From a virus (lineage: Duplodnaviria > Heunggongvirae > Uroviricota > Caudoviricetes): DNA of 30,880 nucleotides. Numbering within the stretch: position 1 is the first letter of the stretch; each line of letters starts with the position of its first letter. The translations under genes and the position numbers were made by a program. The notes beneath the pieces are model-generated. The model was not told the origin of the DNA, ran no database searches, and was given only the letters and a program-made list of their open reading frames with translations. The stretch lies in the IMG/VR virus record IMGVR_UViG_648276660_000001; one strand, given 5' to 3'. Shown here piece after piece: positions 1-26,631 of this stretch.

Positions 1-117
1 GGCGGTCTTTTCATATCTATTCGTACCTCAAAGGTAATAAAAAACCAAATCTGGTTGATCTTTTTTTTGTGTCAGCACAAAATGACCGTAATCCCAATAC
101 TAATAACAGGGCTTACC

Positions 118-6459: not shown

Positions 6460-6790
6460 ATCAGCAGCAGAGCGCAAAGCCGCTCAGAGAGCCAGACAAG
6501 CTGCATCTGGTGTGCGTAAGCTGGAAATTGTGCTTGATGCTCAGGAAATTGAAATGCTGGAGCGTAACTGCGCCGCCCGGCGCCCTGGTCGCGATCCCTA
6601 TGAAATGGCCGAGTACATCGCGCTGCTGATCCGCCAGGATGATGCACGCGTGCGCGGGCGTATAAAATCGATCAGCAGAAAACGTTGCGGTAAGTGCGGC
6701 GAGAGAGTTCCAGTTAATTCATGCCCGTGTAATGGTGACTCGCAATGCTGGGTGACTAAAGGCTGGCATGAAACGAAATTAATAGTGTGA
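6452..6790 (+). CDS. Hypothetical basic protein with C-terminal Cys cluster (CGKCG...CPC...C); possible DNA-binding or regulatory protein immediately upstream of the late operon
   Basis: ORF with start overlapping the upstream gene end; zinc-ribbon-like Cys spacing in translation; the stop codon lies inside the GTGACATGTCAC palindrome. Confidence 0.6.
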
Positions 6791-6798
6791 CATGTCAC
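6787..6798. repeat. Perfect 12-bp palindrome GTGACATGTCAC, copy 1 of 3
   Basis: Exact string read in sequence; other copies at 9052..9063 and 26595..26606. Confidence 0.9.
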
Positions 6799-6839
6799 GA
6801 GTAGATTATGCATGATGAATTTGATGGGTTTTGAATACT

Positions 6840-6865
6840 GCCGCCAACTATGGCGGCTTTATTTT
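6840..6865 (+). terminator. Putative intrinsic terminator (GCCGCC-aactat-GGCGGC followed by TTTATTTT) at the end of the early/nin region
   Basis: GC hairpin plus T-run read in sequence; lies upstream of the predicted terminase start. Confidence 0.45.
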
Positions 6866-6875
6866 GCATGGTATT

Positions 6876-6892
6876 ATTACCACAACGGTAAC
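6876..6892. promoter_or_regulatory. Variant copy of the TTACC-N5-GGTAA palindrome (ATTACCacaacGGTAAC) just upstream of the terminase small subunit start
   Basis: Half-sites TTACC and GGTAA separated by 5 nt as in the eight consensus copies, but central flanking bases differ. Confidence 0.35.
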
Positions 6893-6908
6893 AATTACCA
6901 CGGTGGTT

Positions 6909-7505
6909 ATGATGCCTGCTGAACCTAAAACCTATAAACGCAAATCAACGCAATTTAAGCCGCTCACAGCAATGCAGGAGGCTTATTGCCAGTCATACAT
7001 CAAAACGCCTGAAAACCAGACTCAGGCAGCGATTAACGCAGGATTCTCCCCAAATACAGCGGCAGTTAAAGCCAGTGTCATGATGCGCGATGAACGCATT
7101 CAAAAACGGATTGCCGAGTTGATGGAGGAGCGCAACAAACGAATGCGCGTCAGTGCTGATTACGTTCTCATGCGCTTGGTGGAGATCGACCAGATGGACG
7201 TGATCGATATCCTCAACGACGATGGGAGCCTTAAACCAATCCGTGAGTGGCCGAAAATCTGGCGCACTACGCTTAGTGGCTTTGATCTGTCATCGACCAT
7301 CATGAACATGAACGAGGATTCGATAGAGACAATCCTCAAAAAAATTAAATGGCCTGACAAGGTGAAGAACCTAGAACTGATTGGTAAGCATGTTGATGTC
7401 AACGCGTTCAAAGAACGTCTGGATGTTAATGTGAATGTGACAATTGCTGATCGCATAGCAGCAGCCAGGAAGCGACTCAAAGAACGTCAGGATGGTAATC
7501 AGTGA
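6909..7505 (+). CDS. Terminase small subunit
   Basis: Translation contains LTAMQEAYCQSY...TQAAINAGFSPNTAAVKAS...RIQKRI, resembling recalled terminase small-subunit HTH domains; directly precedes the large subunit; start set at ATG 6909 after a GGTGG RBS (ORF is open from 6831). Confidence 0.75.
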   Translation: MMPAEPKTYKRKSTQFKPLTAMQEAYCQSYIKTPENQTQAAINAGFSPNTAAVKASVMMRDERIQKRIAELMEERNKRMRVSADYVLMRLVEIDQMDVIDILNDDGSLKPIREWPKIWRTTLSGFDLSSTIMNMNEDSIETILKKIKWPDKVKNLELIGKHVDVNAFKERLDVNVNVTIADRIAAARKRLKERQDGNQ

Positions 7506-8977
7506 CAGATACAGCGTTATCTCCTGAAGAGCAGTTGATCGAGGATATTGCAGGGTTCACTCACGATCCGCTTGGCTATGCCCTCTATGCGTTCCCGTGG
7601 GGGGAAGAGGGGACTGAATTAGCACATGCCACCGGTCCACGTAAGTGGCAGGCTGATGCGTTCCGAGAGATACGTGATCACCTGCAGAATCCAGAGACGC
7701 GCTATCAGCCGCTTATGCTGGCACGTGCTTCTGGTCATGGTATTGGTAAATCCGCATTCATCTCAATGCTGATCAACTGGGGCATGTCCACTTGCGAGGA
7801 TTGTAAGGTTGTGGTGACCGCCAACACCGACAACCAGCTACGAACGAAGACCTGGCCGGAAATTATCAAGTGGTCGAACCTTGCCATCACGAAAGACTGG
7901 TTTACCTGTACCGCTACCGCGATGTACAGCAATGATCCTGGGCACGACAAGCGGTGGCGAGCTGACGCAATCCCCTGGTCTGAGCACAACACTGAGGCAT
8001 TCGCCGGACTACACAACGAGCGCAAACGCATCATCGTGGTATTCGATGAAGCGTCGAACATTGCGGATCTGGTGTGGGAAGTTGCTGAGGGTGCGCTTAC
8101 GGACGAAGACACTGAGATTATCTGGGTGGCGTTCGGAAACCCTACACGTAATACCGGGCGTTTTCGCGAATGTTTCCGCAAATACAAACACCGCTGGAAA
8201 ACTGCGCAGATTGACAGCCGGACGGTGGAAGGTACTAACAAACAGCAGTTGCAGAAATGGGTTGATGACTACGGGGAAGACAGCGACTTCGTTAAAATCC
8301 GTGTGCGCGGCATATTCCCTGATGCATCTGAATTGCAGTTTATCCCTACCGGTCTTACTGATGAGGCAATGAAACGGGTGGTAACCGCTGCGCAGGTGGC
8401 TCATGCTCCGGTGATAATCGGTGTTGACCCGGCATATTCAGGCGTTGATGACGCGGTGATATACCTGCGGCAGGGGTTGCATAGTAAGGTGCTATGGACT
8501 GGCAACAAGACCACTGACGATCTGATTATGGCGAAGCGTATCGCTGACTTTGAAGACCAGTATCAGGCTGACGCGGTGTTCATCGACTTCGGTTACGGAA
8601 CCGGTCTGAAGTCAATCGGTGACGGCTGGGGGCGCACATGGCAACTTGTTCCGTTCGGTGGTGCGTCAACTGACCCTCAGATGCTCAACAAGCGCGGGGA
8701 GATGTTCAACTCATGCAAGACATGGCTGAGGTTGGGCGGGATGCTGGATGACCAGGAAACAGCGGACGATCTGTCGGCGGCAGAGTACAAAGTTCGCGTG
8801 GACGGTAAAATCGTTATCGAACCGAAGGAAGATATCAAAGAACGACTTGGGCGTTCGCCGGGTAAAGGCGATGCGCTACTGCTGACGTTTGCTTTCCCTG
8901 TGTCGAAGCGTCTGCGAATTCCCGGGCAGCAGAACCAGCAAGGCAAGGCCATCACAGATTACGATCCCTATGCTTAA
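7502..8977 (+). CDS. Terminase large subunit (ATPase plus nuclease)
   Basis: Walker A-like ASGHGIGKS, Walker B-like IIVVFDEAS, C-terminal nuclease-like GVDPAY segment; GTGA overlap with the small subunit stop. Confidence 0.9.
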   Translation: MTDTALSPEEQLIEDIAGFTHDPLGYALYAFPWGEEGTELAHATGPRKWQADAFREIRDHLQNPETRYQPLMLARASGHGIGKSAFISMLINWGMSTCEDCKVVVTANTDNQLRTKTWPEIIKWSNLAITKDWFTCTATAMYSNDPGHDKRWRADAIPWSEHNTEAFAGLHNERKRIIVVFDEASNIADLVWEVAEGALTDEDTEIIWVAFGNPTRNTGRFRECFRKYKHRWKTAQIDSRTVEGTNKQQLQKWVDDYGEDSDFVKIRVRGIFPDASELQFIPTGLTDEAMKRVVTAAQVAHAPVIIGVDPAYSGVDDAVIYLRQGLHSKVLWTGNKTTDDLIMAKRIADFEDQYQADAVFIDFGYGTGLKSIGDGWGRTWQLVPFGGASTDPQMLNKRGEMFNSCKTWLRLGGMLDDQETADDLSAAEYKVRVDGKIVIEPKEDIKERLGRSPGKGDALLLTFAFPVSKRLRIPGQQNQQGKAITDYDPYA

Positions 8978-9028
8978 TCCGCTGGTGGGGATAATGTCGT
9001 TGATATCCTCTGATGAGGATAAAACAAA

Positions 9029-9051
9029 GCCAGCTCATCGGCTGGCTGTTT
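9029..9051. terminator. Bidirectional intrinsic terminator (GCCAGC-tcatcg-GCTGGC, T-rich on both sides) abutting palindrome copy 2
   Basis: Hairpin and flanking T/A runs read in sequence between convergent genes. Confidence 0.55.
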
Positions 9052-9063
9052 GTGACATGTCAC
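9052..9063. repeat. Perfect 12-bp palindrome GTGACATGTCAC, copy 2 of 3
   Basis: Exact string read in sequence. Confidence 0.9.
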
Positions 9064-9067
9064 GGTG

Positions 9068-9487
9068 TTATTTAATGGCATTAAATCCAGCGTTGATGGC
9101 TTCCGCAATATTGATGGCACTTGTTTTATCGAAGTGCCCATTCTGAATAAGCGCCGCATGCAGGCATTGTAACTTCATGTTGTATAAGTGTTCGCTCATG
9201 TAATCATTATCACTTTTTGCTTTAGCGTAAACAGCGCGAGAAATATCAAACACATCGCCTTTTTCCATTTCAGAACGTTGTGCTGTTATCCAGTCATGGA
9301 ACGTAACGCTAGTACCATGGTCTTCGCTAAGAGTTAACCCGGCCAGTCCCTCACTCTGAATTACTTCGTAATGCATTTCATTATCAGCAAAAACGCCATA
9401 AAAAATGCAGTCTTCAGCCTGAACGATACGAGAATATTTTAATGGCCATTCATTTAGATACTTAGCCAACATATCAATTGTCTTCAT
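9068..9487 (-). CDS. Hypothetical cargo protein (139 aa) on the opposite strand between terminase and portal
   Basis: AGGTGA RBS 5 nt upstream of ATG (minus strand); no recognisable motif; opposite orientation to flanking structural genes. Confidence 0.65.
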   Translation of the reverse strand: MKTIDMLAKYLNEWPLKYSRIVQAEDCIFYGVFADNEMHYEVIQSEGLAGLTLSEDHGTSVTFHDWITAQRSEMEKGDVFDISRAVYAKAKSDNDYMSEHLYNMKLQCLHAALIQNGHFDKTSAINIAEAINAGFNAIK

Positions 9488-9498
9488 GATCTCACCTT

Positions 9499-9522
9499 AA
9501 AAAAATGCCCGGCGAACCGGGC
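9499..9522 (-). terminator. Intrinsic terminator-like hairpin (GCCCGG-ttcg-CCGGGC plus T7 run on minus strand) ending 1 nt before the RBS of the 139-aa gene
   Basis: Read in sequence; unusual placement suggests an attenuator or read-through control. Confidence 0.45.
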
Positions 9523-9596
9523 GAACTGGAAGCAATGAGTTATGCCTTCCGTGGCTGTACGGGTTTACAGCATGAAGTCATCGCAATGGCGTCCTG

Positions 9597-9642
9597 CTGT
9601 AAAAAGGGCGGTGATAGTCCTTCAAGGGAAACTATCACCGCC
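9597..9642 (-). terminator. Terminator of the tRNA transcript (12-bp perfect stem GGCGGTGATAGT/ACTATCACCGCC followed by CTTTTTA on minus strand)
   Basis: Inverted repeat and T-run read in sequence immediately 3' of the tRNA. Confidence 0.55.
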
Positions 9643-9685
9643 AAGCACCTGGAGCTTCTGGCATCACGGTCCTTAGGCGTGATTC

Positions 9686-9762
9686 TGGCGTGGCATGCAG
9701 GATTCGAACCTGCGACCAACCGCTTAGAAGGCGGTTGCTCTGTCCAACTGAGCTAATGCCAC
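9686..9762 (-). tRNA. tRNA-Arg (anticodon UCU), phage-encoded
   Basis: Minus-strand 77 nt: GTGGCAT-TA-GCTC-AGTTGGACA-GAGC-A-ACCGC-CTTCTAA-GCGGT-TGGTC-GCAGG-TTCGAAT-CCTGC-ATGCCAC-G-CCA; 7-bp acceptor stem, canonical D, anticodon and T arms; anticodon loop CTTCTAA gives TCT; encoded CCA end. Confidence 0.9.
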
Positions 9763-10084
9763 AACGCTGAGAGCACTTAGCCTGTTAAGGCGCCACACTT
9801 TGTCGCGGCTCCATAAATGCTCTCATCGTTGTACCCTCGTCTCTTCCGAGGCGTCACACCGAATCGCCGGGATGGTGAATCCCCGTGCGCGGAATAAAAC
9901 CGCTCGACTTGCACATTCCGGCTACCTGGTTCGTTTGCCCGAGCAAGGGAGGGTGCCCCTTAAACGTATCCAGACCGCTATCGGCGCATGTGCCATACGC
10001 CGTACTGCTCAAAATAAAAGCTCACTCCACCTGTTCAATTTAACGACAAGCCAGTCAGGTTAGTAACCGGAATGAACTCTTTGG

Positions 10085-10121
10085 TTACCTAAAGGGTAAT
10101 AATTAGCGCGTTAAATGTCAA
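10085..10121 (-). promoter_or_regulatory. Predicted minus-strand sigma70 promoter (perfect -35 TTGACA at 10116..10121, 17-bp spacer, -10 TACCCT at 10093..10098) whose -10 is the half-site of operator palindrome TTACCTaaaGGGTAAT (10085..10100)
   Basis: Read in sequence; directs transcription toward the tRNA and the 139-aa gene. Confidence 0.45.
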
Positions 10122-10189
10122 CTTTCTACGATAAATAAATCATATGTGGTTAAATTGGTAATAATTTAATTGCGTACGGAGTCATTGAT

Positions 10190-10396
10190 ATGTGCATGGG
10201 TAGCTCACCATCAGTGCCTGCAACACCAGAAGTTCAGGCAGCACCACAGGAGCAGGATGCCGCCGTTGTTGATGCCCGCGACGAAGAAACACGTCGCCGT
10301 CGCGCTGCTGCTGGTCGTAGTTCTACGCTGCTTACCGGTTCTCAGGGCGACACATCAACTGCTAATACCAGCGGTAAAACGCTGCTTGGTCAGTAA
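10190..10396 (+). CDS. Small virion-associated protein, T7 gp6.7-like (tentative)
   Basis: GGAG RBS; 68 aa starting Met-Cys as in T7 gp6.7 (recalled); its RBS string CGGAGTCATTGA is duplicated before the portal gene; sits immediately upstream of portal. Confidence 0.5.
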   Translation: MCMGSSPSVPATPEVQAAPQEQDAAVVDARDEETRRRRAAAGRSSTLLTGSQGDTSTANTSGKTLLGQ

Positions 10397-10410
10397 CCGG
10401 AGTCATTGAA

Positions 10411-12090
10411 ATGGCGGAAACAACTAAAGAGCGATTGAACAAACAGTTCGCACAACTTGAAAGCGAGCGTCAGTCGTTCGAGCCGCACTGGCGCGAGTTG
10501 AGTGATTACATCAACCCGCGTGGTTCCCGCTTTCTGACTTCTGAGGTCAACCGTAACGATCGACGCAATACACGCATTATTGATTCGACCGGGACTATGG
10601 CGGCGCGCACTCTCGCCAGCGGCATGATGTCAGGCATCACAAGCCCTGCGCGTCCGTGGTTTCGCCTGGCTACGCCAGATCCTGAAATGATGGATTATGG
10701 TCCTGTTAAGTTGTGGCTCGAGGCGGTGCAGAACCGCATGAACGATATGTTCAATAAGTCGAATCTCTACCAGTCTCTTCCGCAGTTATACGGAAGCCTC
10801 GGCACATACAGCACTGGTGCAATGGCGGTGCTGGAGGATGACGAGGACATCATTCGCACAATGCCATTCCCGATAGGCAGTTACTACCTGGCTAACTCAC
10901 CTCGTGGCAGTGTGGACACCTGTTTTCGCAAGTTCTCTATGACTGTTCGTCAGCTTGTTCAGGAGTTCGGGCTAAATAACGTCAGCGAATCCGTAAAAAG
11001 CATGTGGGAAAGCGGCACCTACGAGAAGTGGATTGAAGTGATGCATTCGGTTTACCCGAACATTGACCGCGATACATCGAAGCTGGATAGCAAGAACAAG
11101 CCATTCAAATCGGTTTATTACGAGTTTGGCGGCGATAACGACAAGTTGTTGCGTGAGTCCGGATTCGATGAGTTTCCAATTATGGCTCCGCGCTGGGAAG
11201 TTAACGGCGAAGATGTTTATGGATCATCATGCCCGGGTATGCTGGCGCTTGGACCTGTTAAGGCATTGCAGCTTCTCCAGAAGCGCAAGTCGCAGTTGAT
11301 TGATAAAGCCACCAATCCGCCGATGGTTGCTCCGACTTCCCTCAAGAATCAGCGCGCCTCCCTTCTTCCTGGCGACATCACGTATATCGATCAGATTACT
11401 GGTCAGGATGGTTTCAGGCCTGCTTATCTGGTTAACCCCAGTACAGCAGATCTGGTAGCAGACATTCAGGACACTCGTCAAATCATTAACAGCGCCTACT
11501 TTGTCGATCTGTTCATGATGTTGCAGAACATCAATACCCGCTCGATGCCTGTTGAAGCGGTGATCGAAATGAAAGAAGAAAAACTTCTGATGTTGGGTCC
11601 GGTTCTGGAGCGTCTGAACGACGAATGTCTTAATCCTCTCATTGACCGCGCTTTCTCGATGATGGTGCGTAAAAACATGCTGCCGCCACCGCCAGACGTG
11701 ATGGAAGGTATGCCCCTGAAGGTCGAATACATTTCCGTCATGGCTCAGGCGCAGAAGTCTATCGGCCTGTCCAGTCTGGCGTCCACGGTTAACTTCATTG
11801 GTCAACTTGCGCAAGCGAAACCAGAAGCTCTCGACAAACTCAACGTTGATCAGGCGATCGATGCATTCGCTGATATGTCCGGAGTGTCTCCAACCGTCAT
11901 TGTTCCGCAGGAACAGGTTGAGCAGGCTCGCCAGCAACGAGCACAGCAACAACAGCAGCAACAAATGATGGCGATGGGGATGGCGGCGGCACAGGGTGCC
12001 AAGACGCTAAGCGAAGCTAAAACTTCGGATCCGAGTGTTTTGTCAGCTATGGCGAATGCAGTTAGTGGTCAGGGGGGGCAATCACAATGA
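10411..12090 (+). CDS. Portal (head-to-tail connector) protein, T7 gp8-like
   Basis: 559 aa; Gln/Ala/Met-rich C-terminus (QQQQQQQMMAMGMAAAQGA...) resembles recalled T7 gp8 C-terminus; position after terminase and before scaffold/capsid. Confidence 0.85.
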   Translation: MAETTKERLNKQFAQLESERQSFEPHWRELSDYINPRGSRFLTSEVNRNDRRNTRIIDSTGTMAARTLASGMMSGITSPARPWFRLATPDPEMMDYGPVKLWLEAVQNRMNDMFNKSNLYQSLPQLYGSLGTYSTGAMAVLEDDEDIIRTMPFPIGSYYLANSPRGSVDTCFRKFSMTVRQLVQEFGLNNVSESVKSMWESGTYEKWIEVMHSVYPNIDRDTSKLDSKNKPFKSVYYEFGGDNDKLLRESGFDEFPIMAPRWEVNGEDVYGSSCPGMLALGPVKALQLLQKRKSQLIDKATNPPMVAPTSLKNQRASLLPGDITYIDQITGQDGFRPAYLVNPSTADLVADIQDTRQIINSAYFVDLFMMLQNINTRSMPVEAVIEMKEEKLLMLGPVLERLNDECLNPLIDRAFSMMVRKNMLPPPPDVMEGMPLKVEYISVMAQAQKSIGLSSLASTVNFIGQLAQAKPEALDKLNVDQAIDAFADMSGVSPTVIVPQEQVEQARQQRAQQQQQQQMMAMGMAAAQGAKTLSEAKTSDPSVLSAMANAVSGQGGQSQ

Positions 12091-12383
12091 CAGATTACGA
12101 AGACGATCAACTGAAAGAAGAAAACGCCCGTAAGCAACGTGACATGGCAAAGCGTGAAATTGATGACATTCGCTTTGTCATGAGCAGTGAACAGGGGCGT
12201 CGCGTTGTCTGGTCTGTGCTGGAGAAAGGCCGGGTGTTTTCCGCTATCTCTCCGATGGATGCTATGGCAATGGCATTTAATGAGGGGCAACGCAATCTGG
12301 CGCTGGAACTGTTTCAGCGCGTTATGGCGCATTGCCCTGAACAGTATTTGAAGATGGCCAAAGAGGCCAGTGAACAGGAGTGA
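12087..12383 (+). CDS. Hypothetical protein (98 aa, charged, helical-looking)
   Basis: ATGA overlap with the portal stop; G-rich RBS. Confidence 0.55.
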   Translation: MTDYEDDQLKEENARKQRDMAKREIDDIRFVMSSEQGRRVVWSVLEKGRVFSAISPMDAMAMAFNEGQRNLALELFQRVMAHCPEQYLKMAKEASEQE

Positions 12384-12385
12384 TC

Positions 12386-13081
12386 ATGAATTTATTTGAG
12401 CGTTTGCTGTATCGCCGTCTTTGCAATGAGCAGCCAGCCGATGGCGGGGCAGCTCCGGCTGCGTCAGAACCGTCAGCGCATGCAGGTGATAACCCTGCTC
12501 CAGTTGGTGATCCATCACAACAGGAAGGTGATAAGCCACAACCTGTTGCTGATGGCGATAAACCTGCTGATGACAAAAAGCCTGAAAACGATAAGCAGGG
12601 TGAAAAAAAGGACGGCGATAAACCAGAGGGTGCGCCTGAGAAGTACGAGTTTCAGGCTGCCGAAGGCGTAGAGCTGGATACAGAAGCGTTGAAGGAATTC
12701 GAGCCGGTGGCGCGAGAACTTAACCTGACCAACGAGCAAGCGCAAAAGCTGGTTGATGCTTATCCGAAGATTCTGGCAGGTGTTCAGCAGCGCCAGGCAG
12801 AAGCCTGGCAGAAAACAACCGAGCAGTGGGCTGCGGATGTAAAAGCTGACAAAGAAATCGGTGGCGACAAGTTGATTTCTAACCTTAGCGCCGCACAGCG
12901 TGCGCTTGACCAGTTCGGGACACCTGAGCTCAAAGAATATCTGAACACCACCGGGCTGGGTAATCACCCTGATCTGGTCAAAACGTTCGTGAAAATCGGA
13001 AAGGCGATGTCTGAAGATGGCATGGTCACCGGTGGTAATGAAGGCCAGCGTAGTGCGGCCGAAGTGCTCTATGGCAAATAA
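12386..13081 (+). CDS. Putative scaffolding protein
   Basis: CAGGAG RBS 5 nt before ATG 12386; acidic, Pro/Asp/Lys-rich low-complexity N-terminus and helical C-terminus; located between portal and capsid. Confidence 0.65.
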   Translation: MNLFERLLYRRLCNEQPADGGAAPAASEPSAHAGDNPAPVGDPSQQEGDKPQPVADGDKPADDKKPENDKQGEKKDGDKPEGAPEKYEFQAAEGVELDTEALKEFEPVARELNLTNEQAQKLVDAYPKILAGVQQRQAEAWQKTTEQWAADVKADKEIGGDKLISNLSAAQRALDQFGTPELKEYLNTTGLGNHPDLVKTFVKIGKAMSEDGMVTGGNEGQRSAAEVLYGK

Positions 13082-13095
13082 GAGAGGAAATGACA

Positions 13096-14082: not shown

Positions 14083-14098
14083 CGCCTGTTATTAACCT

Positions 14099-14118
14099 GT
14101 GGGCCGCAACAGGCCCAC
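14099..14118 (+). other. GC-rich stem-loop (GTGGGCC-gcaaca-GGCCCAC) after the capsid gene; no T-run
   Basis: Inverted repeat read in sequence; T7-type phages carry a terminator after the capsid gene (established knowledge), but here it may be only an RNA stability or processing element. Confidence 0.4.
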
Positions 14119-14133
14119 TAATGGAGAAAGAAG

Positions 14134-14571: not shown

Positions 14572-14581
14572 GGTGATATTG

Positions 14582-14917: not shown

Positions 14918-14967
14918 GCCTCGCGAATCAGACAAGGGGCTTCGGCTCCTTTATTGCAGGAGTGTAT

Positions 14968-19376: not shown

Positions 19377-21889
19377 TGCCAGTCGTACCAACAGTATCCG
19401 GACGTCAGGTTGAGAGCCGTGGAGTTCAGTCAGCAGGCTTGCAGACGTTTTCTCAGCCAGGTATTGGTGATGCTTTTGTTCGGGCAGGGGCAGAGGCAAT
19501 TGATGTTTTGGGGCAGGCAAAACAGCGTGCCAATATTGCCTTGGCTCAGGAGGCATCTCTTAACCTCAGTCAGATAAGCAGTGATTTGCTGAATAATCCT
19601 GAAACAGGATTGCTTAACCTGAAAGGGAAAAATGCTATTGGAAAAGGCCATGAGTATACGCAGCAGTTTGATGCTCAGGTCGAACAATTGGCTATGTCGC
19701 TGCCGGATGAACAGGCTCGTAATGCTTTCATGCAGCAGGCGCAGCAGCAGCGCATTCAGTTCACTACGCAGGCCGGGCGGCACGAGATAGGGCAAATAAA
19801 TGCCTACGAAGAAGGCCAGTTTCAGGCTACGCTGCTGAACAATGGTAAAAATGCCGCAGCATTGTATGGCGACAACGCCGCATACGTATTGGCTAATAAG
19901 CAAACTTTCCAGCAAATTGAGGATTACGGCATTGCACATGGCTGGAGTGACGAGCAAATCCAGGCCAAGAAAATCGAGTTTAAAGAAGCAACAGCAAAAG
20001 CAACTGCTCAAAATGCTATTGGAGCAAACTATCTTCAGGTAAGATGGCAAAACGGCGAGTTAAGCGATACTGCTGCTGGATCTCGCCGTGCTGTAGCAGA
20101 TAGTGGCTCTTCCGATCGTACCCGCGGTATACGCAACAATAACCCCGGCAATCTTGAATACAGCAAAACTAATCCGTGGGTTGGGCAGACTGGTGATGAT
20201 GGTCGCTTTGCCAAATTCGAAACCCCTGAACACGGTATTCGTGCATTAGGGCGGAACCTGATGTCGTATCAGCGGCAGGGTATTGATACCGTCAGCGAGA
20301 TAATTAATCGCTGGGCACCGCCTACTGATAAAAATGACACTATGTCGTATATCAAAGCAGTGTGCGAACAACTTGGCGTTTCTGCTGATGAGCCTCTCGA
20401 TGCATCAAATCCTGATACCCTGAAGGCGCTTTGTGCAGCCATTATCCATCATGAAAACGGTAGCCAGCCATACAGTGATCAGCAGTTAACTGCAGGTGTT
20501 AGTGCTGCGCTGGGGCTTTCTCAGCTACCGACAAAAAATAAACGTTATACCGGTGTAGCCTGGTTCGATGCTTTAAGTGAATCAGATCAGGCCAGCGTGT
20601 TGCGACAGACTGATGCACTAGCCAGACAACAGCAGGCTGAATATAAAACGATGCTCGACAGCCGGGTTCGCGATGCGACGGCTGCGTATATGCGTGGCGT
20701 TGAATTTCCTAACCCACCTGGTGAGGATGATTTTATTGCAGCTTATGGAGTCAGAGAAGGAAACCTGCGATATACCGAGTTTAAGAATACGCAGATCGCC
20801 GGACAGTATATAGGCTCTTTCCGCAACATGCCGACAAGCAGCATTACAGCATATGTTGAGCAATTACGCCCGGATACTGGTGATACAGGGGAGGGGTATG
20901 CGGCACGCGCAGCTCTTTATGACAACGTTGTTTCGGCTGCAAATCAGGTGATAAAGCAGCGGCAGTCGGATCCTGTGCAGTTCTCTCTTGCCTCCGGACA
21001 GGCAAAGCCTATCGACATGAGCAATAAGGATAACTTTGGACAGAGCGTTGCCTTGCGTGCCGCTCAGGTCAGTGACCTTGCTAAGTCATATGGCACTCCA
21101 CTGACGTTCTTTTCCAAAGACGAGGCCAATCAGATCGGTGTTTTCTTTCGTGATGCGCCAGTTTCCCAACAGGCAGCATATCTCGATACCATCAGGCAGA
21201 GCACTGGTGGTGGGCAGGTGTATATGTCAGCACTACAGCAGATCAGTGCCAACGCTCCATCTGCTGCCGTTGCCGGGATACTGATGGATAAGCCTGGTGG
21301 TATTTTGGCAGAAAAAAACTGGTTTAATCCTGATGTTTCCGTGTCTCCTGAAACCGCAGCGCAGACAATTCTTGCTGGTGCGGCGGCTCGTAAAGGTACT
21401 GATGACGCGAAAGGTATTCCGATGCCTAAAGATGCTGATCTCCGCATTGAGTTTTCTGACATGGTGAAGGATGCATTTGCTGGTGATGCTCAGGGGGCAT
21501 CAATGGCATACGAGATCGCAAAGGACTATTACGCTGGTGTGATGGCGAAAAAAGGCGTGGTATCAGGCGAAATTGACAATGATATCTGGAAACAGGCTGT
21601 TAACGTAGCTACAGGTGGCGTGCATGACTATAACGGAATGGGGAATGTTCTTTTGCCGTGGGGAATGTCTGCAGAGCAATTCGATAAGCAGGTTAATCAG
21701 GCTTGGAATGAACAAGTTGTCGGCACAGGGATAAAAACACCGCTTGGTCAGTATGGTTTGCAAAGTTACGGCGATAGTCAGTACCTGGTGAAACTTGGTA
21801 CTGGTTATCTGCTAAAAGATGATGGTTCTCCCGTTGTTCTTGATCTGACACAGAAGCGTCAGAGATTCTCCGGAGATATTCCGCAATGA
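19376..21889 (+). CDS. Large internal virion/ejection protein with a conserved central block (GIRNNNPGNLEY ... IIHHENG), possibly a cell-wall-acting domain
   Basis: ATG 19376 with GGAGGA RBS and TAATG overlap (the ORF-track extension from 19301 overlaps the upstream gene); 837 aa; position after gp14-like gene. Confidence 0.7.
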   Translation: MPVVPTVSGRQVESRGVQSAGLQTFSQPGIGDAFVRAGAEAIDVLGQAKQRANIALAQEASLNLSQISSDLLNNPETGLLNLKGKNAIGKGHEYTQQFDAQVEQLAMSLPDEQARNAFMQQAQQQRIQFTTQAGRHEIGQINAYEEGQFQATLLNNGKNAAALYGDNAAYVLANKQTFQQIEDYGIAHGWSDEQIQAKKIEFKEATAKATAQNAIGANYLQVRWQNGELSDTAAGSRRAVADSGSSDRTRGIRNNNPGNLEYSKTNPWVGQTGDDGRFAKFETPEHGIRALGRNLMSYQRQGIDTVSEIINRWAPPTDKNDTMSYIKAVCEQLGVSADEPLDASNPDTLKALCAAIIHHENGSQPYSDQQLTAGVSAALGLSQLPTKNKRYTGVAWFDALSESDQASVLRQTDALARQQQAEYKTMLDSRVRDATAAYMRGVEFPNPPGEDDFIAAYGVREGNLRYTEFKNTQIAGQYIGSFRNMPTSSITAYVEQLRPDTGDTGEGYAARAALYDNVVSAANQVIKQRQSDPVQFSLASGQAKPIDMSNKDNFGQSVALRAAQVSDLAKSYGTPLTFFSKDEANQIGVFFRDAPVSQQAAYLDTIRQSTGGGQVYMSALQQISANAPSAAVAGILMDKPGGILAEKNWFNPDVSVSPETAAQTILAGAAARKGTDDAKGIPMPKDADLRIEFSDMVKDAFAGDAQGASMAYEIAKDYYAGVMAKKGVVSGEIDNDIWKQAVNVATGGVHDYNGMGNVLLPWGMSAEQFDKQVNQAWNEQVVGTGIKTPLGQYGLQSYGDSQYLVKLGTGYLLKDDGSPVVLDLTQKRQRFSGDIPQ

Positions 21890-23688
21890 GTTACTTTGGC
21901 CTTAATCCAGTAAACCAGAATCAGCAGCTTGACGAAGCAGCATCAAATCCAGCTGGCTTTAACAGCGATGTTGGTTTTTTCGACAATGCTGTAGGAGCGG
22001 CATTGTCTGGTTTGTACTCCGGGCTGGTGGCAAAGCCAGATCAGTTGCTCTGGGCAGGGATGGATAAAATCGTATCCCCGATTGCTCAGTTTGTTAACGA
22101 AAACACCTCGCTCAATGACACTTCAGTTTCATACATTGCCGAGCAGAGAAAACTAGCAGAGCAGCAGGTTAAGCGGCTGACGCCTGATGCCGCGACAACT
22201 GGAACCGCCGGGCAGGTTCTTTATGGGTTGTTCGATATGGGCGGGCAGGCTGTTGTTGGTACAACGCTCGGTGGTCCGGTCGGAGGTGCTGCGGCGGTAA
22301 CTTCGCTACAGGGTTTTTCTGAGTTTGAACGGCTGACAGCACAGGGTGTTGATTTCAGGACGGCGCAGGAAGCGGGATTAGTGCAGGGCATTACTGCTGG
22401 TGCCGGAACGCTGATCCCTATAAGCCTCGGGTTACGTGCTGGTGGTGCGCTGGCGGAAGGTGTGGCGGCTCAGCTTGCGCGGACGGGTGAAAGTTCAGTG
22501 CGACGCGCCGCAGCAACAGCAGTACGTGCAACGCCAGATATTGCCTATGCCGCAGGTACAAATATTGCGTTCGGTATGGCACAGCGTGGGCTTACTGCAA
22601 AAACGCTTCGTGATGGTGGCTATAGCGAAATGGCTAATCAGTATGATGTGTTGGATCGACAGGCAATTGCTATTGATGCTGTTCTTGGAGTGGCGTTTGG
22701 TGGTGTCGGCAGATTTATTAACTCTCGCGGCGAGTCTACAAGCGCACCAAATTTTTCACCAGTTGATGTCGATGCTGCACTGGCGGCGAATGCCGCTCAT
22801 CATGCTGAAATTGATATTGCTCCCGGTGTGCCGATCAACGTGCTTTCGCGTAATTCGCACATTCAGGCTCTGCGAAAAGCCATGTCTGATGTTAGCCAGG
22901 GGAGACCTGTAGACGTTGCCAGCATTGTTGAGTCTGCATCTTTCAGTGAAATTCCTGGGCGCAAGAGTCTGCTTTCTCAGGCAGTTAATGAGGCTCTGTC
23001 ATCTGTAGATGATGGAGTAACGGCGCGCGCTATAGAAAATCGGTTGCTTGAAGAACAGGCCGCGCAGCTTTTGCCGCGTGGCGATAGACAGGTTTACCAG
23101 TCTGAAATCGCTAATAGCCAACGAATTATTGAAAATCTCACTGAACAGCGCGCACAAATTCTTGCAGAAGAGCCAACCGGTAGCGGTAAAGCTTTGTCTC
23201 GTGCTCGATCAGATAAACAGGCCAGACTTCGCGATATTGATCAACGAATCCGGCAGGCACAAGAACGCCTGGAGTTTTCCCGTAACGCGTTGGCACCGCA
23301 CGAGCCTGGCGGTCAGTTTTTTGAAGCTCGAGCAGAACTGGCACGACGACAGCAGGCAGAAAGTGAACTTAATGCTCAGGCTGTTTCATTCTATAAAACA
23401 GCAGAGGTCAGGACGCCAGACGAAGTAGCTCCTTTTGAGCCCGGTAAGATATTGCAACAGACAGAACAAAAAATGATGGCAGATCCGGCAGGAGATATTG
23501 ATCTGCGTATAGCTGAAGACTCGCTGCTTGAATCTCCGGACATGATAATCACCGTGCTGGATGATGATGGTAATCCACAATCGCGCAGTGCGCGTGAAGT
23601 ACTGGATGAAGCGAACAGGGAAAGTGAGCAGGCAATACAGGATTCCAGCCTGTTTGATGTTGCTGTGGCGTGTTTCTTGAGAGGTTAA
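21886..23688 (+). CDS. Large internal virion/ejection protein (Gly/Ala-rich N-terminal half, charged coiled-coil-like C-terminal half)
   Basis: 600 aa; ATGA overlap with upstream gene. Confidence 0.7.
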   Translation: MSYFGLNPVNQNQQLDEAASNPAGFNSDVGFFDNAVGAALSGLYSGLVAKPDQLLWAGMDKIVSPIAQFVNENTSLNDTSVSYIAEQRKLAEQQVKRLTPDAATTGTAGQVLYGLFDMGGQAVVGTTLGGPVGGAAAVTSLQGFSEFERLTAQGVDFRTAQEAGLVQGITAGAGTLIPISLGLRAGGALAEGVAAQLARTGESSVRRAAATAVRATPDIAYAAGTNIAFGMAQRGLTAKTLRDGGYSEMANQYDVLDRQAIAIDAVLGVAFGGVGRFINSRGESTSAPNFSPVDVDAALAANAAHHAEIDIAPGVPINVLSRNSHIQALRKAMSDVSQGRPVDVASIVESASFSEIPGRKSLLSQAVNEALSSVDDGVTARAIENRLLEEQAAQLLPRGDRQVYQSEIANSQRIIENLTEQRAQILAEEPTGSGKALSRARSDKQARLRDIDQRIRQAQERLEFSRNALAPHEPGGQFFEARAELARRQQAESELNAQAVSFYKTAEVRTPDEVAPFEPGKILQQTEQKMMADPAGDIDLRIAEDSLLESPDMIITVLDDDGNPQSRSAREVLDEANRESEQAIQDSSLFDVAVACFLRG

Positions 23689-23693
23689 ATTAA

Positions 23694-26168
23694 ATGAGAC
23701 AGGAATGTATACAAGCGGTCCAGCAGGCGGCGCAGCGCACGTTAACGGCGCGAGAAATACAGAACATTGAAGACCGCATTTATCGAAATATGCGCTCCAT
23801 TGCTCGTGATGACCCGATGTCGTGGCGACAACTTTCCGAATCAGAACGGTTGTATCGTGCAGCACAATTGGCATCTGAAGAATTACAGCGAGAAGCGGCA
23901 TTAAAGAAACGTCGTGTGGCCCTCACTATAGCCGCACGTCAGAGATTGGATAAATTTATCAATAGCTATCAAGGGGCTGATGGGAAACTTGGCGCTCTTA
24001 ACCGTACTATTGCTTTTAATGCAGACGGTAAATCGAATTTCCTCTCTGTTGAATCCAGAACAAAAGCCACCCGTGATTATGCATTGAGTCAATTGCAGGA
24101 GGCATTCGAAGCAGTTGATCCTCGCTTTTTTGGTCTGTTTGAAGATGAAGCGGGCGTACGTGACCTGGTATATGAAATGCGGGGGCAAAATACTGGCAAT
24201 GCTAAAGCAAGAAAAGGTGCTAAGGCGTGGAGAGAAGTTACAGAGCTGCTGCGCCGCCGGTTTAATGATGCTGGTGGGGACATTGGCTATCTCGAAAACT
24301 GGGGGATCCCTCAACATCATTCTATGGAAAAGGTTGGGGCGGTATCAAAGGATAAGTGGGTTAGCGATGTTATAGGTAAGCTGGATCGCAAATATTATAC
24401 CCGAGCCGATGGACAACTGATGAACGATGCCGAGTTGTCTGAATTTCTTGGAGAGGCTTATAACACGATCGCTACTGGTGGGCTGAATAAGCTTACTGAT
24501 ACCGGAATGCGAATTTCCGGCGCACGTGCTAACCGTGGTAATGCATCACGACAGATACATTTCAAAGATGCAGATTCCTATCTGCAATATCAGCAACTTT
24601 ATGGCGATCGCTCTCTATGGGAAATCATGGTCGGTCACCTGGAAGGTATCAGTAAAGATATTGCGCTGGTGGAAACATATGGCCCAAACCCCGATCATGT
24701 TTTCCGCTCCCTTCTTGATCAGGTTAAGGCAGAAACGGCAACAGCTAACCCGAGTAAAACCGGTAGCGTCGAGCGTCTGGCGAACAAAACAGAGAACTTG
24801 TACAACTTTATTTCCGGAAAAACACAGCCTGTAGCGAATCCGCACATCGCGCGATGGTCTGACAATATCCGCAACTGGCTGGTTGCCAGCAGACTCGGAT
24901 CCGCGTTGCTGTCATCGTTCTCTGATCTTGGAACCATGTATCTGTCTGCGAAGGTTACCAACCTTCCAATGAACCAGTTATTTCGCAACCAGCTTGAAGC
25001 TATGGACCCAACGAACCGTACAGAACTTGCGCGGGCGCGCCGCGCTGGCCTGGCGATGGAATCTCTACTTGGCAGCGTTAACCGCTGGGCGATGGATAAT
25101 ATGGGGCCGTCTGTGTCTCGTTGGGCGGCAACGGCGGTAATGCGTGCCAGTGGGCTTACAGCATGGTCAGATGCGCACAAGCGCGCCTATGGCGTAACCA
25201 TGATGGGAAGCCTGGGAGAAGTAGTGTCACGGACACCAGACCTTCGTAGCCTCGATGACTCTGATTTTCGTATCCTGAAAAGCAAAGGGATTACTGACAC
25301 AGACTGGAGCGTATGGAAGCTGGCGCAACAGGAGGACTGGGGGAACGGTAATAATACGATGCTGACACCGGAAAGCATTATGCGTATCCCTGATTCAGCA
25401 GTTAAACATCTTGGTGAGCCTGAACGCGTGAAATTTGAGGCAATGCGTAAACTGCTCGGTGCCGTAACTGAAGAAGTTGATATGGCTGTTATTACACCGG
25501 GCGCACGTGAACAGATGTTCGTAGGGTCTGGTCTTCAGCGTGGAACATGGAAAGGTGAATTAACGAGAAGTGTTTTCCTGTTTAAATCGTTCCCTATCTC
25601 GGTAGTTATGCGTCACTGGCATAGAGCTATGGGGATGCCGTCTGCTGGTGGGCGTGCGGCATATATAGCAACGTTTTTAGCAAGCACAACCATGCTTGGT
25701 GCTCTTTCCATGCAGATTACTGATCTTATTAATGGGAGAAATCCAAAAGAAATGACCGGTGACAACATGGTTAAATTCTGGATAAATGCATTTTTAAAAG
25801 GTGGTGGGGCAGGGTTGTATGGTGATTTTCTTTTCTCTGACCACACCAGGTACGGGAGCGGCGCACTAGCGTCGATGCTTGGCCCGGTAGCTGGTCTGGT
25901 TGATGACGTAGTGAAGATTGCTCAGGGCATACCGTTAAATGCTGTGGAAGGGAAGAATGAGCAGACTGGTGGTGATCTGGTTAAGCTTGGGAAAGGTTTG
26001 ATGCCTGGTGCGAATCTCTGGTACTTGAAGGCGGCTCTCGATCACATGATCTTTAATCAGATGCAGGAGTATTTTTCACCAGGCTATTTGCGTAAAATGG
26101 AGCAACGTTCGAAGAAAGAGTTTAACCAGACATACTGGTGGCGACCTCAGGATGTCACTCCGCAATAA
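23694..26168 (+). CDS. Large internal virion/ejection protein
   Basis: 824 aa; last large gene of the late operon before the accessory island. Confidence 0.7.
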   Translation: MRQECIQAVQQAAQRTLTAREIQNIEDRIYRNMRSIARDDPMSWRQLSESERLYRAAQLASEELQREAALKKRRVALTIAARQRLDKFINSYQGADGKLGALNRTIAFNADGKSNFLSVESRTKATRDYALSQLQEAFEAVDPRFFGLFEDEAGVRDLVYEMRGQNTGNAKARKGAKAWREVTELLRRRFNDAGGDIGYLENWGIPQHHSMEKVGAVSKDKWVSDVIGKLDRKYYTRADGQLMNDAELSEFLGEAYNTIATGGLNKLTDTGMRISGARANRGNASRQIHFKDADSYLQYQQLYGDRSLWEIMVGHLEGISKDIALVETYGPNPDHVFRSLLDQVKAETATANPSKTGSVERLANKTENLYNFISGKTQPVANPHIARWSDNIRNWLVASRLGSALLSSFSDLGTMYLSAKVTNLPMNQLFRNQLEAMDPTNRTELARARRAGLAMESLLGSVNRWAMDNMGPSVSRWAATAVMRASGLTAWSDAHKRAYGVTMMGSLGEVVSRTPDLRSLDDSDFRILKSKGITDTDWSVWKLAQQEDWGNGNNTMLTPESIMRIPDSAVKHLGEPERVKFEAMRKLLGAVTEEVDMAVITPGAREQMFVGSGLQRGTWKGELTRSVFLFKSFPISVVMRHWHRAMGMPSAGGRAAYIATFLASTTMLGALSMQITDLINGRNPKEMTGDNMVKFWINAFLKGGGAGLYGDFLFSDHTRYGSGALASMLGPVAGLVDDVVKIAQGIPLNAVEGKNEQTGGDLVKLGKGLMPGANLWYLKAALDHMIFNQMQEYFSPGYLRKMEQRSKKEFNQTYWWRPQDVTPQ

Positions 26169-26177
26169 GGAACAACA

Positions 26178-26591
26178 ATGAAGGAATTATTGCTGTTATC
26201 GGTATTTTTGATATCCGCTTGCTCGACATCCTATGATGTTTATGACGGTGTTGATAAGGCATATTGCGACAAAGTTAAAATGGATTTTTCTCTTGCCAAG
26301 ACGGCGAAGGATAGTTGTATTGATCACTACGTCAAGACTTATACCAAGCCAGCCTCATCGGCATCTGATATTGCTGAAGGTGCTGTGTTTGAGTGTAACA
26401 AGGTGATATCCATCGCAGCGAGTTCTTCATACGATGCTGCTGTATGTGCAATGGCTGAAAGAAACGGCATGTCAGTGCAAAAAATTAATAGCATGATAAG
26501 CAGTAATGACGAAGCCAAAATAAGAACTGATATCAGCTCGGTGAAAAAAGATGCCATGAACAGAGTTGTAAAATATCAGTCATCTTTATAA
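26178..26591 (+). CDS. Putative lipoprotein (cargo gene; candidate superinfection-exclusion or envelope protein)
   Basis: AAGGAA RBS; N-terminus MKELLLLSVFLISAC has a signal peptide with lipobox-like LISA-C; AT-rich relative to neighbours; followed by palindrome copy 3 and a terminator. Confidence 0.65.
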   Translation: MKELLLLSVFLISACSTSYDVYDGVDKAYCDKVKMDFSLAKTAKDSCIDHYVKTYTKPASSASDIAEGAVFECNKVISIAASSSYDAAVCAMAERNGMSVQKINSMISSNDEAKIRTDISSVKKDAMNRVVKYQSSL

Positions 26592-26594
26592 GTC

Positions 26595-26606
26595 GTGACA
26601 TGTCAC
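26595..26606. repeat. Perfect 12-bp palindrome GTGACATGTCAC, copy 3 of 3
   Basis: Exact string read in sequence. Confidence 0.9.
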
Positions 26607-26607
26607 A

Positions 26608-26631
26608 GGCCGCTTTCGCGGCCTTGTTTTT
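26608..26631 (+). terminator. Intrinsic terminator (GGCCGC-tttc-GCGGCC followed by TTGTTTTT)
   Basis: Read in sequence between convergent genes. Confidence 0.7.

What the first reader, a model, noticed from the sequence alone, without database searches (positions are those of the whole stretch)
6787..26606. Perfect 12-bp palindrome GTGACATGTCAC present three times at operon ends
Seen in sequence at 6787-6798 (overlapping the stop codon of the last early gene, just before the terminase region), 9052-9063 (after terminase, abutting a terminator) and 26595-26606 (after the lipoprotein gene, abutting a terminator). Flanking sequences are unrelated, so only the 12-mer is conserved; the chance expectation for a given 12-mer in 30 kb is far below 0.01. 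Each copy lies within about 50 bp of an intrinsic terminator hairpin. Candidate roles: module-boundary recombination linker, protein-binding site (the spacing does not fit CRP), or RNA processing/termination element.
Basis: seen in the sequence. Interest (0 to 1): 0.5.

Follow-up and report, generated by a model that had tools for sequence, protein, structure and literature searches.

The report
Phage matS-like operator at operon ends
The thrice-repeated palindrome is real and is the conserved partner site of a small, uncharacterised phage DNA-binding protein whose gene ends inside one copy; the site is the E. coli chromosome-organising matS sequence with one base removed, and it sits at the ends of transcription units in many temperate phages.

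The parts
6787..6798 (.). Site 1: GTGACATGTCAC (extended TGTGACATGTCACG); its TGA (6788-6790) is the stop codon of the RHH/zinc-knuckle gene
   Evidence: same register in 29 of 53 independent loci
9052..9063 (.). Site 2: GTGACATGTCAC at the convergent junction between terL (+) and the accessory gene 9068-9487 (-); 4 nt from that gene's terminator hairpin
   Evidence: syntenic copy in epsilon15 at 2142, and in phiV10 and Tyrion
26595..26606 (.). Site 3: GTGACATGTCAC at the end of the virion-structural operon, 3 nt after the lipoprotein ORF stop, abutting a terminator hairpin
   Evidence: syntenic copy in epsilon15 at 19517, where its TGA is the stop of gp18
6452..6790 (+). Gene of the 112-aa candidate binding protein (epsilon15 gp49 / phiV10 p55 / N15 gp46 family; phrog_536): basic N-terminal helix, ribbon-helix-helix core, long helix, Cys4 zinc knuckle
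6840..6857 (+). Intrinsic-terminator-like hairpin plus T-run, 41 nt downstream of site 1 and upstream of two Rep-operator-like sites and the terS start
9028..9047 (-). Terminator-like hairpin (T-run on the minus strand) for gene 9068-9487; site 2 lies 4 nt 5' of it on the minus strand
26607..26624 (+). Terminator-like hairpin plus T-run that starts at the base after site 3

Best explanation
The 12-mer is the core of a 14-bp double-stranded DNA operator, Y-GTGAC-(AT)-GTCAC-R. It is most likely bound by a dimer of the small ribbon-helix-helix plus zinc-knuckle protein encoded at 6452-6790. That protein is made last in the early rightward operon, and its gene ends inside site 1. Protein and site travel together as a portable module among temperate phages of Enterobacterales and Vibrio. 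In this phage the three operators lie at the 3' ends of transcription units: the early operon before terS, the terS-terL operon, and the structural operon. Each lies on the 5' side of an intrinsic terminator hairpin. I infer that the bound protein acts on RNA polymerase at these boundaries. It would work as a roadblock or insulator that reinforces termination, or blocks read-through from the side of the hairpin that has no T-run, and so keeps neighbouring modules transcriptionally separate. Shown here: the motif, its strict spacing, its linkage to the gene, the predicted RHH fold, and the placement at terminators and mosaic junctions. Inferred: that this protein binds the site, and the sign and mechanism of its effect on transcription.
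For: Strict architecture: spacer 2 occurs 74 times in 1.02 Mb of related loci, against 0-3 for spacers 0, 1, 3-8 and for the everted arrangement. In 10 complete phages the counts are 23 against 0-1. Flank and centre preferences (position -1 is C or T in 96%; centre AT in 75 of 99) show a symmetric 14-bp site.

Linkage: 53 loci were picked by an N-terminal peptide only. In 35 the motif is within -15 to +40 nt of the gene's stop, 29 of them in one register (G+TGA+C..GTCAC). Fifty of 53 have at least one copy in +/-10 kb, where about 0.02 is expected.

Linkage persists at low protein identity. N15 gp46 (35%) has GTGACTGGTCAC three times, including at its stop. A Yersinia P2-like phage (43%) has the motif at the stop. 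Vibrio phage K233 (32%) has three copies. ZF40 has three copies, Chlobot one at the gene's end, and Pantoea AH07 one at the stop.

The half-sites are those of matS, the site of the RHH protein MatP (PMC3603311, PMC8669397).

Placement: 43 of 97 instances have a terminator-like hairpin within 60 nt, against 10% of random positions and 15% of long-ORF stops. In 32 of 36 the motif is 5' of the hairpin, and in 17 it is within 0-4 nt.

DNA rather than RNA: the RNA hairpin is worth -1.2 kcal/mol and the half-sites are invariant.
Against: There is no direct evidence of binding. The protein has no Pfam or NCBIfam family. Its profile similarity to canonical RHH proteins and to MatP is not significant, so the fold rests on a predicted monomer model.

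An operator at the 3' end of the regulator's own gene and next to terminators is unusual for RHH repressors, which normally bind promoters. No consistent promoter lies next to the sites.

More than half of all instances have no nearby terminator. Some lie just before an RBS and start codon, and some lie inside genes: 186-type cII-like, Q-like, and a roughly 110-aa family. One single function may therefore not cover all copies.

Some family members have no motif at their stop, and three loci have none within 10 kb.

The central dinucleotide is not always the same at all sites of one genome, so there is no clean protein-site co-variation. The half-site never changes across the family.
Confidence: 0.5

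Rival explanations
1. The sites are bound by a host protein, most plausibly MatP, because the half-sites are those of matS. The phage would use them to tether its DNA, or to unload MukBEF from it, by borrowing the host Ter-organising system. Alternatively they act as decoys.
For: GTGACATGTCAC is consensus matS GTGACATTGTCAC minus one base (PMC8669397, PMC3603311). Hosts of the phages that carry the motif are largely Enterobacterales, Vibrio and Aeromonas, the groups I recall as having MatP (own knowledge). One Vibrio phage site is a perfect 13-bp matS.
Against: Spacing is strictly 12 bp. The 13-bp form is at background, 2 and 1 copies against 74 and 23. All reported matS, including the divergent Photorhabdus GTTAC-N3-GTAAC, keep a 3-bp spacer (PMC8669397). 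True matS is absent from 500 prophages (PMC3603311). The tight linkage to a phage gene is not explained. SlmA, whose site is 12 bp, needs G at position 5 and a pyrimidine at position 6, which are C and A here (PMC3020112).
Confidence: 0.1
2. The motif is a recombination linker: a short conserved junction sequence at which accessory genes and modules are exchanged among phages, with or without help from the linked protein. It has no regulatory role.
For: Homology breaks exactly at the motif at all three positions. At site 1, 47 loci have a conserved left flank and an unrelated right flank. At site 2, 19 loci do. At site 3, 9 loci have a conserved right flank only. At least five or six unrelated genes abut each of sites 1-3 in relatives.
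Against: Twelve to 14 bp is below the length needed for RecA- or Red-type exchange (own knowledge). The motif is also kept inside coding sequences and in single-copy genomes such as Chlobot, where no exchange partner exists. Strict spacing and symmetric flank preferences point to recognition by a dimeric protein. A selected element beside variable genes gives the same breakpoint pattern.
Confidence: 0.12
3. The element works in RNA. It would be a short 3'-UTR or intercistronic hairpin or sequence, GUGACAUGUCAC, bound by the protein or a host factor. It would modulate the adjacent terminator (antitermination), mRNA 3'-end stability, or translation of the next gene.
For: The motif lies in the transcript immediately 5' of terminator hairpins in 32 of 36 cases. 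Elsewhere it lies 5-18 nt upstream of an RBS and ATG. The protein has a basic N-terminal helix and a zinc knuckle.
Confidence: 0.08
4. The protein-site pair organises DNA rather than transcription. Like MatP tetramers, the protein would bridge the two or three sites into loops, insulating topological domains or helping replication or packaging.
For: There are typically two or three dispersed copies per genome. MatP is among the closest structural neighbours, with the longest aligned stretch. Sites lie at domain or operon boundaries.
Against: Several phages carry a single copy (Chlobot, Yersinia phage). The close, oriented juxtaposition to terminator hairpins is not explained by looping. No oligomerisation domain equivalent to the MatP coiled coil was shown.
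Confidence: 0.15

Closest known systems
MatP / matS (E. coli Ter macrodomain system)
   Different: The spacer is 2 bp, not 3, and strictly so. There is no detectable sequence homology to MatP (no Pfam MatP hit). A four-helix-bundle N-domain and a C-terminal coiled coil are not apparent; there is a Cys4 zinc knuckle instead. The sites lie in a prophage at guaA, at gene ends and terminators, not in Ter.
Omega repressor (pSM19035) and its heptad operators
   Same: An RHH protein reading short units spaced 7 bp apart. The unit WATCACW resembles TGTCACR, and GTGA..TCAC has the same 4-bp gap as two inverted omega heptads (PMC2441792).
   Different: Omega sites are arrays of 7-10 heptads at promoters, and the reported minimal pairs are direct or converging. 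Here there is one diverging pair, at gene ends. No sequence homology was shown.
P22 Arc/Mnt and other phage or plasmid RHH repressors (CopG, ParD, TacA, AmrZ)
   Same: Predicted fold and size of the DNA-binding domain, and a short palindromic target.
   Different: Those bind operators that overlap promoters, usually their own. This site lies at the 3' end of the regulator's gene and beside terminators. There is an extra zinc knuckle. Sequence-family membership was not met.
SlmA-binding sequence (GTGAGTACTCAC)
   Same: A 12-bp palindrome with the same outer GTGA...TCAC (PMC3116907, PMC3020112).
   Different: Positions 5 and 8 are C and G instead of G and C, and position 6 is A. SlmA binding is impaired by changes at position 5 (PMC3020112). 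SlmA is a TetR-type protein.
Lambda Q and its DNA site at PR' (regulator gene immediately upstream of its own cis site and a terminator)
   Same: A small zinc-containing regulator whose gene is directly followed by its presumed DNA site and then a terminator, ahead of late genes (own knowledge of lambda).
   Different: No promoter or pause signal was identified at the sites. N15, Chlobot and AH07 carry both a Q-like gene and this module, so it is not the Q equivalent. No homology to Q.
TraR / DksA-type zinc-finger RNA-polymerase-binding proteins
   Same: The C-terminal half (long helix, C-x2-C-G-x2-[LI]-P ... C, short helix) aligns weakly with TraR and YbiI (E 0.03-0.05, hhalign probability 44%).
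   Different: The fourth cysteine position differs. There is no Pfam zf-dskA_traR hit in 70 members. The long helix is at the same time helix B of the RHH. Not established.

Membership tests
Ribbon-helix-helix (RHH) DNA-binding superfamily (for the linked protein) | beta-strand, helix, helix core fold | tested here: met
Ribbon-helix-helix (RHH) DNA-binding superfamily (for the linked protein) | Significant match to an RHH sequence family (Pfam RHH_1, RHH_5, Arc, MetJ and others) | tested here: inconclusive
   None for the window protein. There are weak sub-threshold hits to RHH-type families (RHH_5, RHH_1, the TacA1 antitoxin family, RepB-RCR_reg) in 6 of 70 members. hhalign against Arc, Mnt, CopG, omega and ParG aligns the right segments but gives probability 1%.
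Ribbon-helix-helix (RHH) DNA-binding superfamily (for the linked protein) | Obligate dimer whose two strands form the DNA-reading sheet | not testable with these tools
   Only single-chain prediction was available.
MatP/matS | 13-bp site GTGAC-RNY-GTCAC | tested here: not met
   The half-sites are met but the spacer is 2 bp. The 13-bp form is at background, and there is none in the full prophage.
MatP/matS | Protein homologous to MatP (Pfam MatP; four-helix bundle, RHH, coiled coil) | tested here: not met
MatP/matS | Sites confined to the Ter macrodomain of the chromosome | tested here: not met
   The sites are in a prophage integrated next to guaA and in many phage genomes.
SlmA-binding sequence | 12-bp GTGAGTACTCAC, with G, T, A and G required at positions 1, 2, 4 and 5 | tested here: not met
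   Position 5 is invariably C and position 6 is mostly A. Requirement taken from PMC3020112.
CRP site | TGTGA-N6-TCACA | tested here: not met
   The gap between TGTGA and TCACA is 4 bp.
Epsilon15-type prophage repressor (Rep) operator | ATTACC-N5-GGTAAT | tested here: not met
   This is a different motif. It is annotated in epsilon15 and found 11 times in the window at other places.
Intrinsic terminator | G+C-rich hairpin followed by a T-run | tested here: not met
   The 12-mer itself folds at only -1.2 kcal/mol and has no T-run. The adjacent hairpins at 6840, 9028 and 26607 do meet the definition.
TraR/DksA zinc-finger family (C-terminal half of the protein) | C4 zinc finger CxxC-x17-CxxC after a long helix; match to zf-dskA_traR | tested here: inconclusive
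   PDB profile search gave YbiI at E 0.028 and TraR at E 0.044. hhalign probability is 44%. There is no Pfam hit. Only three cysteines are invariant.

The most novel reading that the evidence does not exclude
Temperate phages of MatP-containing bacteria carry their own system parallel to MatP/matS but distinct from it. It consists of a small RHH protein with a TraR-like zinc knuckle and 12-bp 'matS minus one' sites. The sites are kept distinct from host matS by a single base of spacing and are placed at operon ends. There the DNA-bound protein would either engage RNA polymerase, to set termination or read-through at the adjacent terminator, or pair the sites to insulate transcription and topological domains. 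That would be a CTCF-like boundary element in a phage genome.
Probability: 0.2. Interest if true: 0.85.

Novelty: new variant of a known kind. Interest (0 to 1): 0.66.

Why it matters
If the pairing is confirmed, it assigns a DNA target and a likely role to a protein family that is annotated only as 'hypothetical' or 'transcriptional regulator'. The site-1 junction of this prophage type (the gene's 3' end, the motif and the terS leader) is present in about 9% of complete E. coli genomes. The family occurs in N15-, P2-, lambda-, ZF40- and epsilon15-type phages.

It would also add a new class of cis-element, a protein operator built into the 5' flank of intrinsic terminators and into gene junctions, to the known parts of phage genomes. 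This bears on how mosaic modules are kept transcriptionally independent.

The one-base difference from matS gives a direct experimental handle on how RHH proteins measure half-site spacing. It also bears on why prophages avoid true matS (PMC3603311). No paper in the searched library mentions the 12-mer or phage matS-like sites.

Tried and rejected
1. Rep (prophage repressor) operator: rejected. The epsilon15 record annotates ATTACC-N5-GGTAAT as the repressor site, and that motif occurs elsewhere in the window.

2. CRP, FNR, LexA and SlmA sites: rejected on spacing or key bases (PMC3020112).

3. RNA structure: fold energies are no better than shuffles for the 12-mer, and there is no Rfam family at the sites.

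4. Promoter: GTGACA is a 5/6 match to the -35 hexamer. The scan finds a weak GTGACA-18-CATGAT site at site 1 only. There is no -10 at sites 2 and 3, and no constant geometry in relatives, so this was dropped.

5. Late antiterminator (Q analogue): weakened, because N15, Chlobot and AH07 have both a Q-like gene and this module. In addition, Rep-operator-like sites directly precede terS and the portal operon.

6. pac or terminase site: sites flank terS-terL here and precede terS in Vibrio K233, but there is no such relation in N15, ZF40, Chlobot or the P2-like phage.

7. Sequence-based family assignment of the protein (Pfam, NCBIfam, PDB phmmer, hhalign against RHH proteins and MatP) led nowhere.

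8. The first AF2 run, on a shallow alignment, gave pLDDT 62 and meaningless Foldseek hits. Only the deep alignment worked.

9. Fusion proteins in the family were uninformative.

11. The Dupaigne 2012 MatP-matS structure paper could not be read.

12. A count of the motif in a whole host chromosome could not be made.
Full report
**1. Observation**

GTGACATGTCAC is present exactly three times, at 6787-6798, 9052-9063 and 26595-26606.
- With up to two mismatches there are five matches, against 1.08 expected. None of 100 dinucleotide-preserving shuffles reached five.
- It is the only perfect 12-bp palindrome that recurs in the window.

- Site 1 contains the TGA stop of ORF 6452-6790 and lies 41 nt before the hairpin 6840-6857.
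- Site 2 lies between the stop of the minus-strand ORF 9068-9487 (4 nt away) and the hairpin 9028-9047. That hairpin is terminator-like on the minus strand and is also 4 nt away.
- Site 3 lies 3 nt after the stop of a 137-aa lipoprotein-like ORF and abuts the hairpin 26607-26624.

**2. What the window is**

The window is an epsilon15/phiV10-like (Uetakevirus) temperate podovirus.
- A near-identical prophage sits next to guaA in E. coli MS 198-1. In 50 kb covering the whole prophage and its host flanks, the motif occurs only at the same three places.
- The site-1 region is found in 502 of 5426 complete E. coli genomes.
- Epsilon15 shares only about 79% DNA identity in the conserved genes. It has the identical 12-mer at the three syntenic positions: 2142, 19517 and 39612.
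- The epsilon15 GenBank record annotates a different motif, ATTACC-N5-GGTAAT, as the repressor operator. That motif also occurs 11 times in the window, including two copies directly before the terS start. The palindrome is therefore not the immunity operator.

**3. The real motif**

Relatives show the conserved element is GTGAC-N2-GTCAC.
- In 1.02 Mb of related loci this form occurs 74 times. Spacers of 0, 1 and 3-8 bp, and the everted arrangement, occur 0-3 times each, with about 1 expected.
- In ten complete phage genomes the counts are 23 against 0-1.
- Across 99 instances the centre is AT in 75. The base before the motif is C or T in 96%, and symmetrically the base after it is G or A. The site is therefore a symmetric 14-mer, YGTGAC-AT-GTCACR.
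- The half-sites alone are not enriched in the prophage: 57 against about 80 expected.

**4. Linkage to one gene family**

Site 1 overlaps the stop of a 112-aa protein: epsilon15 gp49, phiV10 p55, phrog_536 'transcriptional regulator'. It has no Pfam or NCBIfam family.

A scan of viral contigs for the 14-mer returned many hits at the stop codon of homologues of this protein. These included homologues of only 47-56% identity and ones in non-Uetakevirus contexts.

As an unbiased test I fetched 53 loci from species-representative genomes, using only an N-terminal peptide pattern of the family.
- 35 have the motif within -15 to +40 nt of the stop.
- 29 of these are in one register, in which the motif's TGA is the stop codon.
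- A few more ORFs read through the motif in the VTCH frame.
- 50 of 53 have at least one copy within 10 kb, against about 0.02 expected per locus.

The link survives deep divergence.

| Phage | Protein identity | Motif copies |
|---|---|---|
| N15 gp46 | 35% | GTGACTGGTCAC three times, one at its stop |
| Yersinia P2-like phage | 43% | GTGACGCGTCAC at the stop |
| Vibrio phage K233 | 32% | three copies, one 18 nt before the terS ATG |
| Pectobacterium ZF40 | 69% | three copies |
| Lambda-like Chlobot | 86% | one copy, after the gene |
| Pantoea AH07 | 58% | one at the gene's stop, next to xis-int; one inside the Q-like gene |

The family is small: 207 clusters at 50% identity among 1.84 billion representatives.

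**5. The protein**

Alignments show a basic N-terminal segment, a strand-helix-helix pattern and conserved cysteines (C79, C82 and C99, plus one around position 91).
- Sequence methods failed to place it.
- A first AF2 run on a shallow alignment was poor.
- With a 70-sequence alignment the model reached pLDDT 90.1. Its elements are H5-18, an extended 19-29 segment, H30-42, H52-74, a cysteine knuckle and H100-108.
- Six of 70 family members give weak hits to RHH-type Pfam families.
- The C-terminal half aligns weakly with TraR and YbiI zinc-finger proteins (E 0.03-0.05, probability 44%). I treat this as a lead only.

**6. Resemblance to matS**

- E. coli matS is GTGAC[AG]N[CT]GTCAC, with consensus GTGACATTGTCAC (PMC3603311, PMC8669397). 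The window's motif is that consensus with one central base removed.
- From my own knowledge, MatP is an RHH protein. My recalled sequence matched PDB 4D8J exactly.
- The phage sites are strictly 12 bp. Even a divergent MatP keeps a 3-bp spacer (PMC8669397), and true matS is absent from 500 prophages (PMC3603311).
- There is no sequence homology to MatP.
- SlmA's 12-bp site shares the outer four bases (PMC3116907). It requires G at position 5, which is invariably C here (PMC3020112).
- I therefore file the element as working like a matS-type RHH site, but not as a member of MatP/matS.
- The omega repressor reads unspaced 7-bp WATCACW units, one RHH dimer each (PMC2441792). It is a second analogue, for half-sites whose centres are 7 bp apart.

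**7. Where the sites sit**

(a) Mosaic junctions. Compared with the window, homology in relatives breaks at the motif.
- Site 1: 47 loci keep the left flank but not the right.
- Site 2: 19 loci keep only the left flank.
- Site 3: 9 loci keep only the right flank.

(b) Terminators.
- 43 of 97 instances have a terminator-like hairpin within 60 nt. The figure is 10% for random positions and 15% for stops of long ORFs.
- In 32 of 36 cases the motif is on the 5' side of the hairpin in the terminator's own orientation. In 17 of those it is within 0-4 nt.

(c) Other recurring contexts.
- 5-18 nt upstream of the RBS and ATG of the next gene.
- Inside genes, in the two frames that lack the TGA. Examples are the 3' end of 186-type cII-like genes, the start or zinc motif of Q-like genes, and codon 35 or so of a roughly 110-aa family.

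The RNA hairpin is marginal (-1.2 kcal/mol), and no compensatory changes are seen. The element is therefore read as duplex DNA.

**8. Mechanism**

I commit to the following. The palindrome is the operator of the RHH/zinc-knuckle protein encoded at 6452-6790. That protein is made at the end of the early operon and binds beside its own gene and at two further operon ends.

Because of the oriented juxtaposition to terminator hairpins and to gene junctions, the most economical function is action on elongating RNA polymerase at boundaries. This could be a roadblock or insulator. It would reinforce termination, or stop polymerases arriving from the side of a one-directional terminator that has no T-run.

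This fits sites 2 and 3, which lie at convergent junctions. It also fits the contexts where the motif precedes xis-int, LexA-controlled antirepressor promoters, Q or terS. The sign of the effect is not established, and antitermination or looping remain possible. Binding itself is inferred.

**9. Novelty**

The library searches found no mention of the 12-mer or of phage matS-like sites. The protein family is named only 'hypothetical', 'transcriptional regulator' or, in one record, 'RepB-like'. Conservatively this is a new RHH regulator-operator pair with an unusual placement. The more novel reading is a phage-borne counterpart of MatP/matS that is kept distinct from it and marks operon boundaries.

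Noticed in passing
window 22-38, 1950-1966, 2012-2028, 6876-6892, 6894-6910, 10084-10100, 27524-27540, 28569-28585, 28662-28678, 29782-29798: ATTACC-N5-GGTAAT-like sites, the motif annotated as the repressor operator in epsilon15. There are 11 matches with up to 2 mismatches, against 0.8 expected. Two adjacent copies end 1 nt before the likely terS ATG (6912), and one precedes the portal operon. This suggests the late operons are directly controlled by the prophage repressor.
   Followed up: partly
window 28347-28432 (-) and 28457-28533 (-): Rfam C4 antisense RNA (77.8 bits) and isrK (67.4 bits) lie just upstream of the Bro-N antirepressor-like gene 27612-28307 (-). This is a P1/N15 immI-like antirepressor control region. 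In N15, one of the three motif copies (28550) lies just upstream of the corresponding antirepressor operon.
   Followed up: partly
window 9686-9762 (-): tRNA-Arg(TCT) on the minus strand. It overlaps the mechanically listed ORF 9505-9756 (+), which some related records annotate as a protein.
   Followed up: no
window 6808-6834 (+): An eight-codon mini-ORF, MHDEFDGF*, lies between site 1 and its terminator. The peptide M-x-DEFDGF is kept, with synonymous changes, in L132, L133 and L139. The same octapeptide is the C-terminus of the accessory protein beside site 2 in epsilon15, L117 and L133. It could be a remnant of a gene end or a functional acidic tail ending in F (reminiscent of an SSB tail).
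   Followed up: partly
L140:4164, L141:232, L143:2039, L146:3487, L147:1353, L127 (ZF40):5125: In a family of roughly 110-aa proteins the motif is embedded as codons C-D-M-S. Two of the five translated (L141, L140) end in D-I-P-F or E-I-P-Y, which resembles the C-terminal tail of SSB.
   Followed up: no
L008:6283-6330, L009:1250-1300, L143:10349-10370, L183 (Yersinia phage):10000-10070: In several relatives the gene of the RHH protein is followed directly by a promoter with a LexA box (TACTGT-N8-ACAGTA). This presumably drives a Tum- or Ant-type antirepressor, and the motif sits just upstream of the -35.
   Followed up: no
L025:10780-10880, L044:720-800, L054:3120-3200, L073:1900-1960, L111:10820-10900, L170:171-230: Unrelated viral or genomic contigs carry dense arrays of GTGAC/GTCAC half-sites with variable spacing around a copy of the 12-mer. 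This may be an iteron-like region for a different protein that reads the same half-site.
   Followed up: no
L184 (Vibrio phage K233):19491-19503: GTGACACCGTCAC, a perfect 13-bp matS consensus match. Its TGA is the stop of an unrelated gene, and it occurs in a phage that also has three 12-bp sites.
   Followed up: no
window 26869-26885: A second, bidirectional terminator-like hairpin (AGCCCGCAGCGCGGGCT) lies 260 nt beyond site 3. In L084 and L076 the motif lies about 20 nt from a similar hairpin (AAGCCCGCATAGCGGGCTT), as if the segment in between were an insertion or deletion.
   Followed up: no
L185 (Pantoea phage AH07):34430-34441: The motif encodes V-T-C-H inside a C-x2-C-x-G-x-G zinc motif of the Q-like antitermination protein. 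In other prophages (L013, L018, L023, L075, L160) it encodes R-D-M-S at codons 2-5 of a Q-like gene. Two different frames are used to keep the same DNA word in late-regulator genes.
   Followed up: partly
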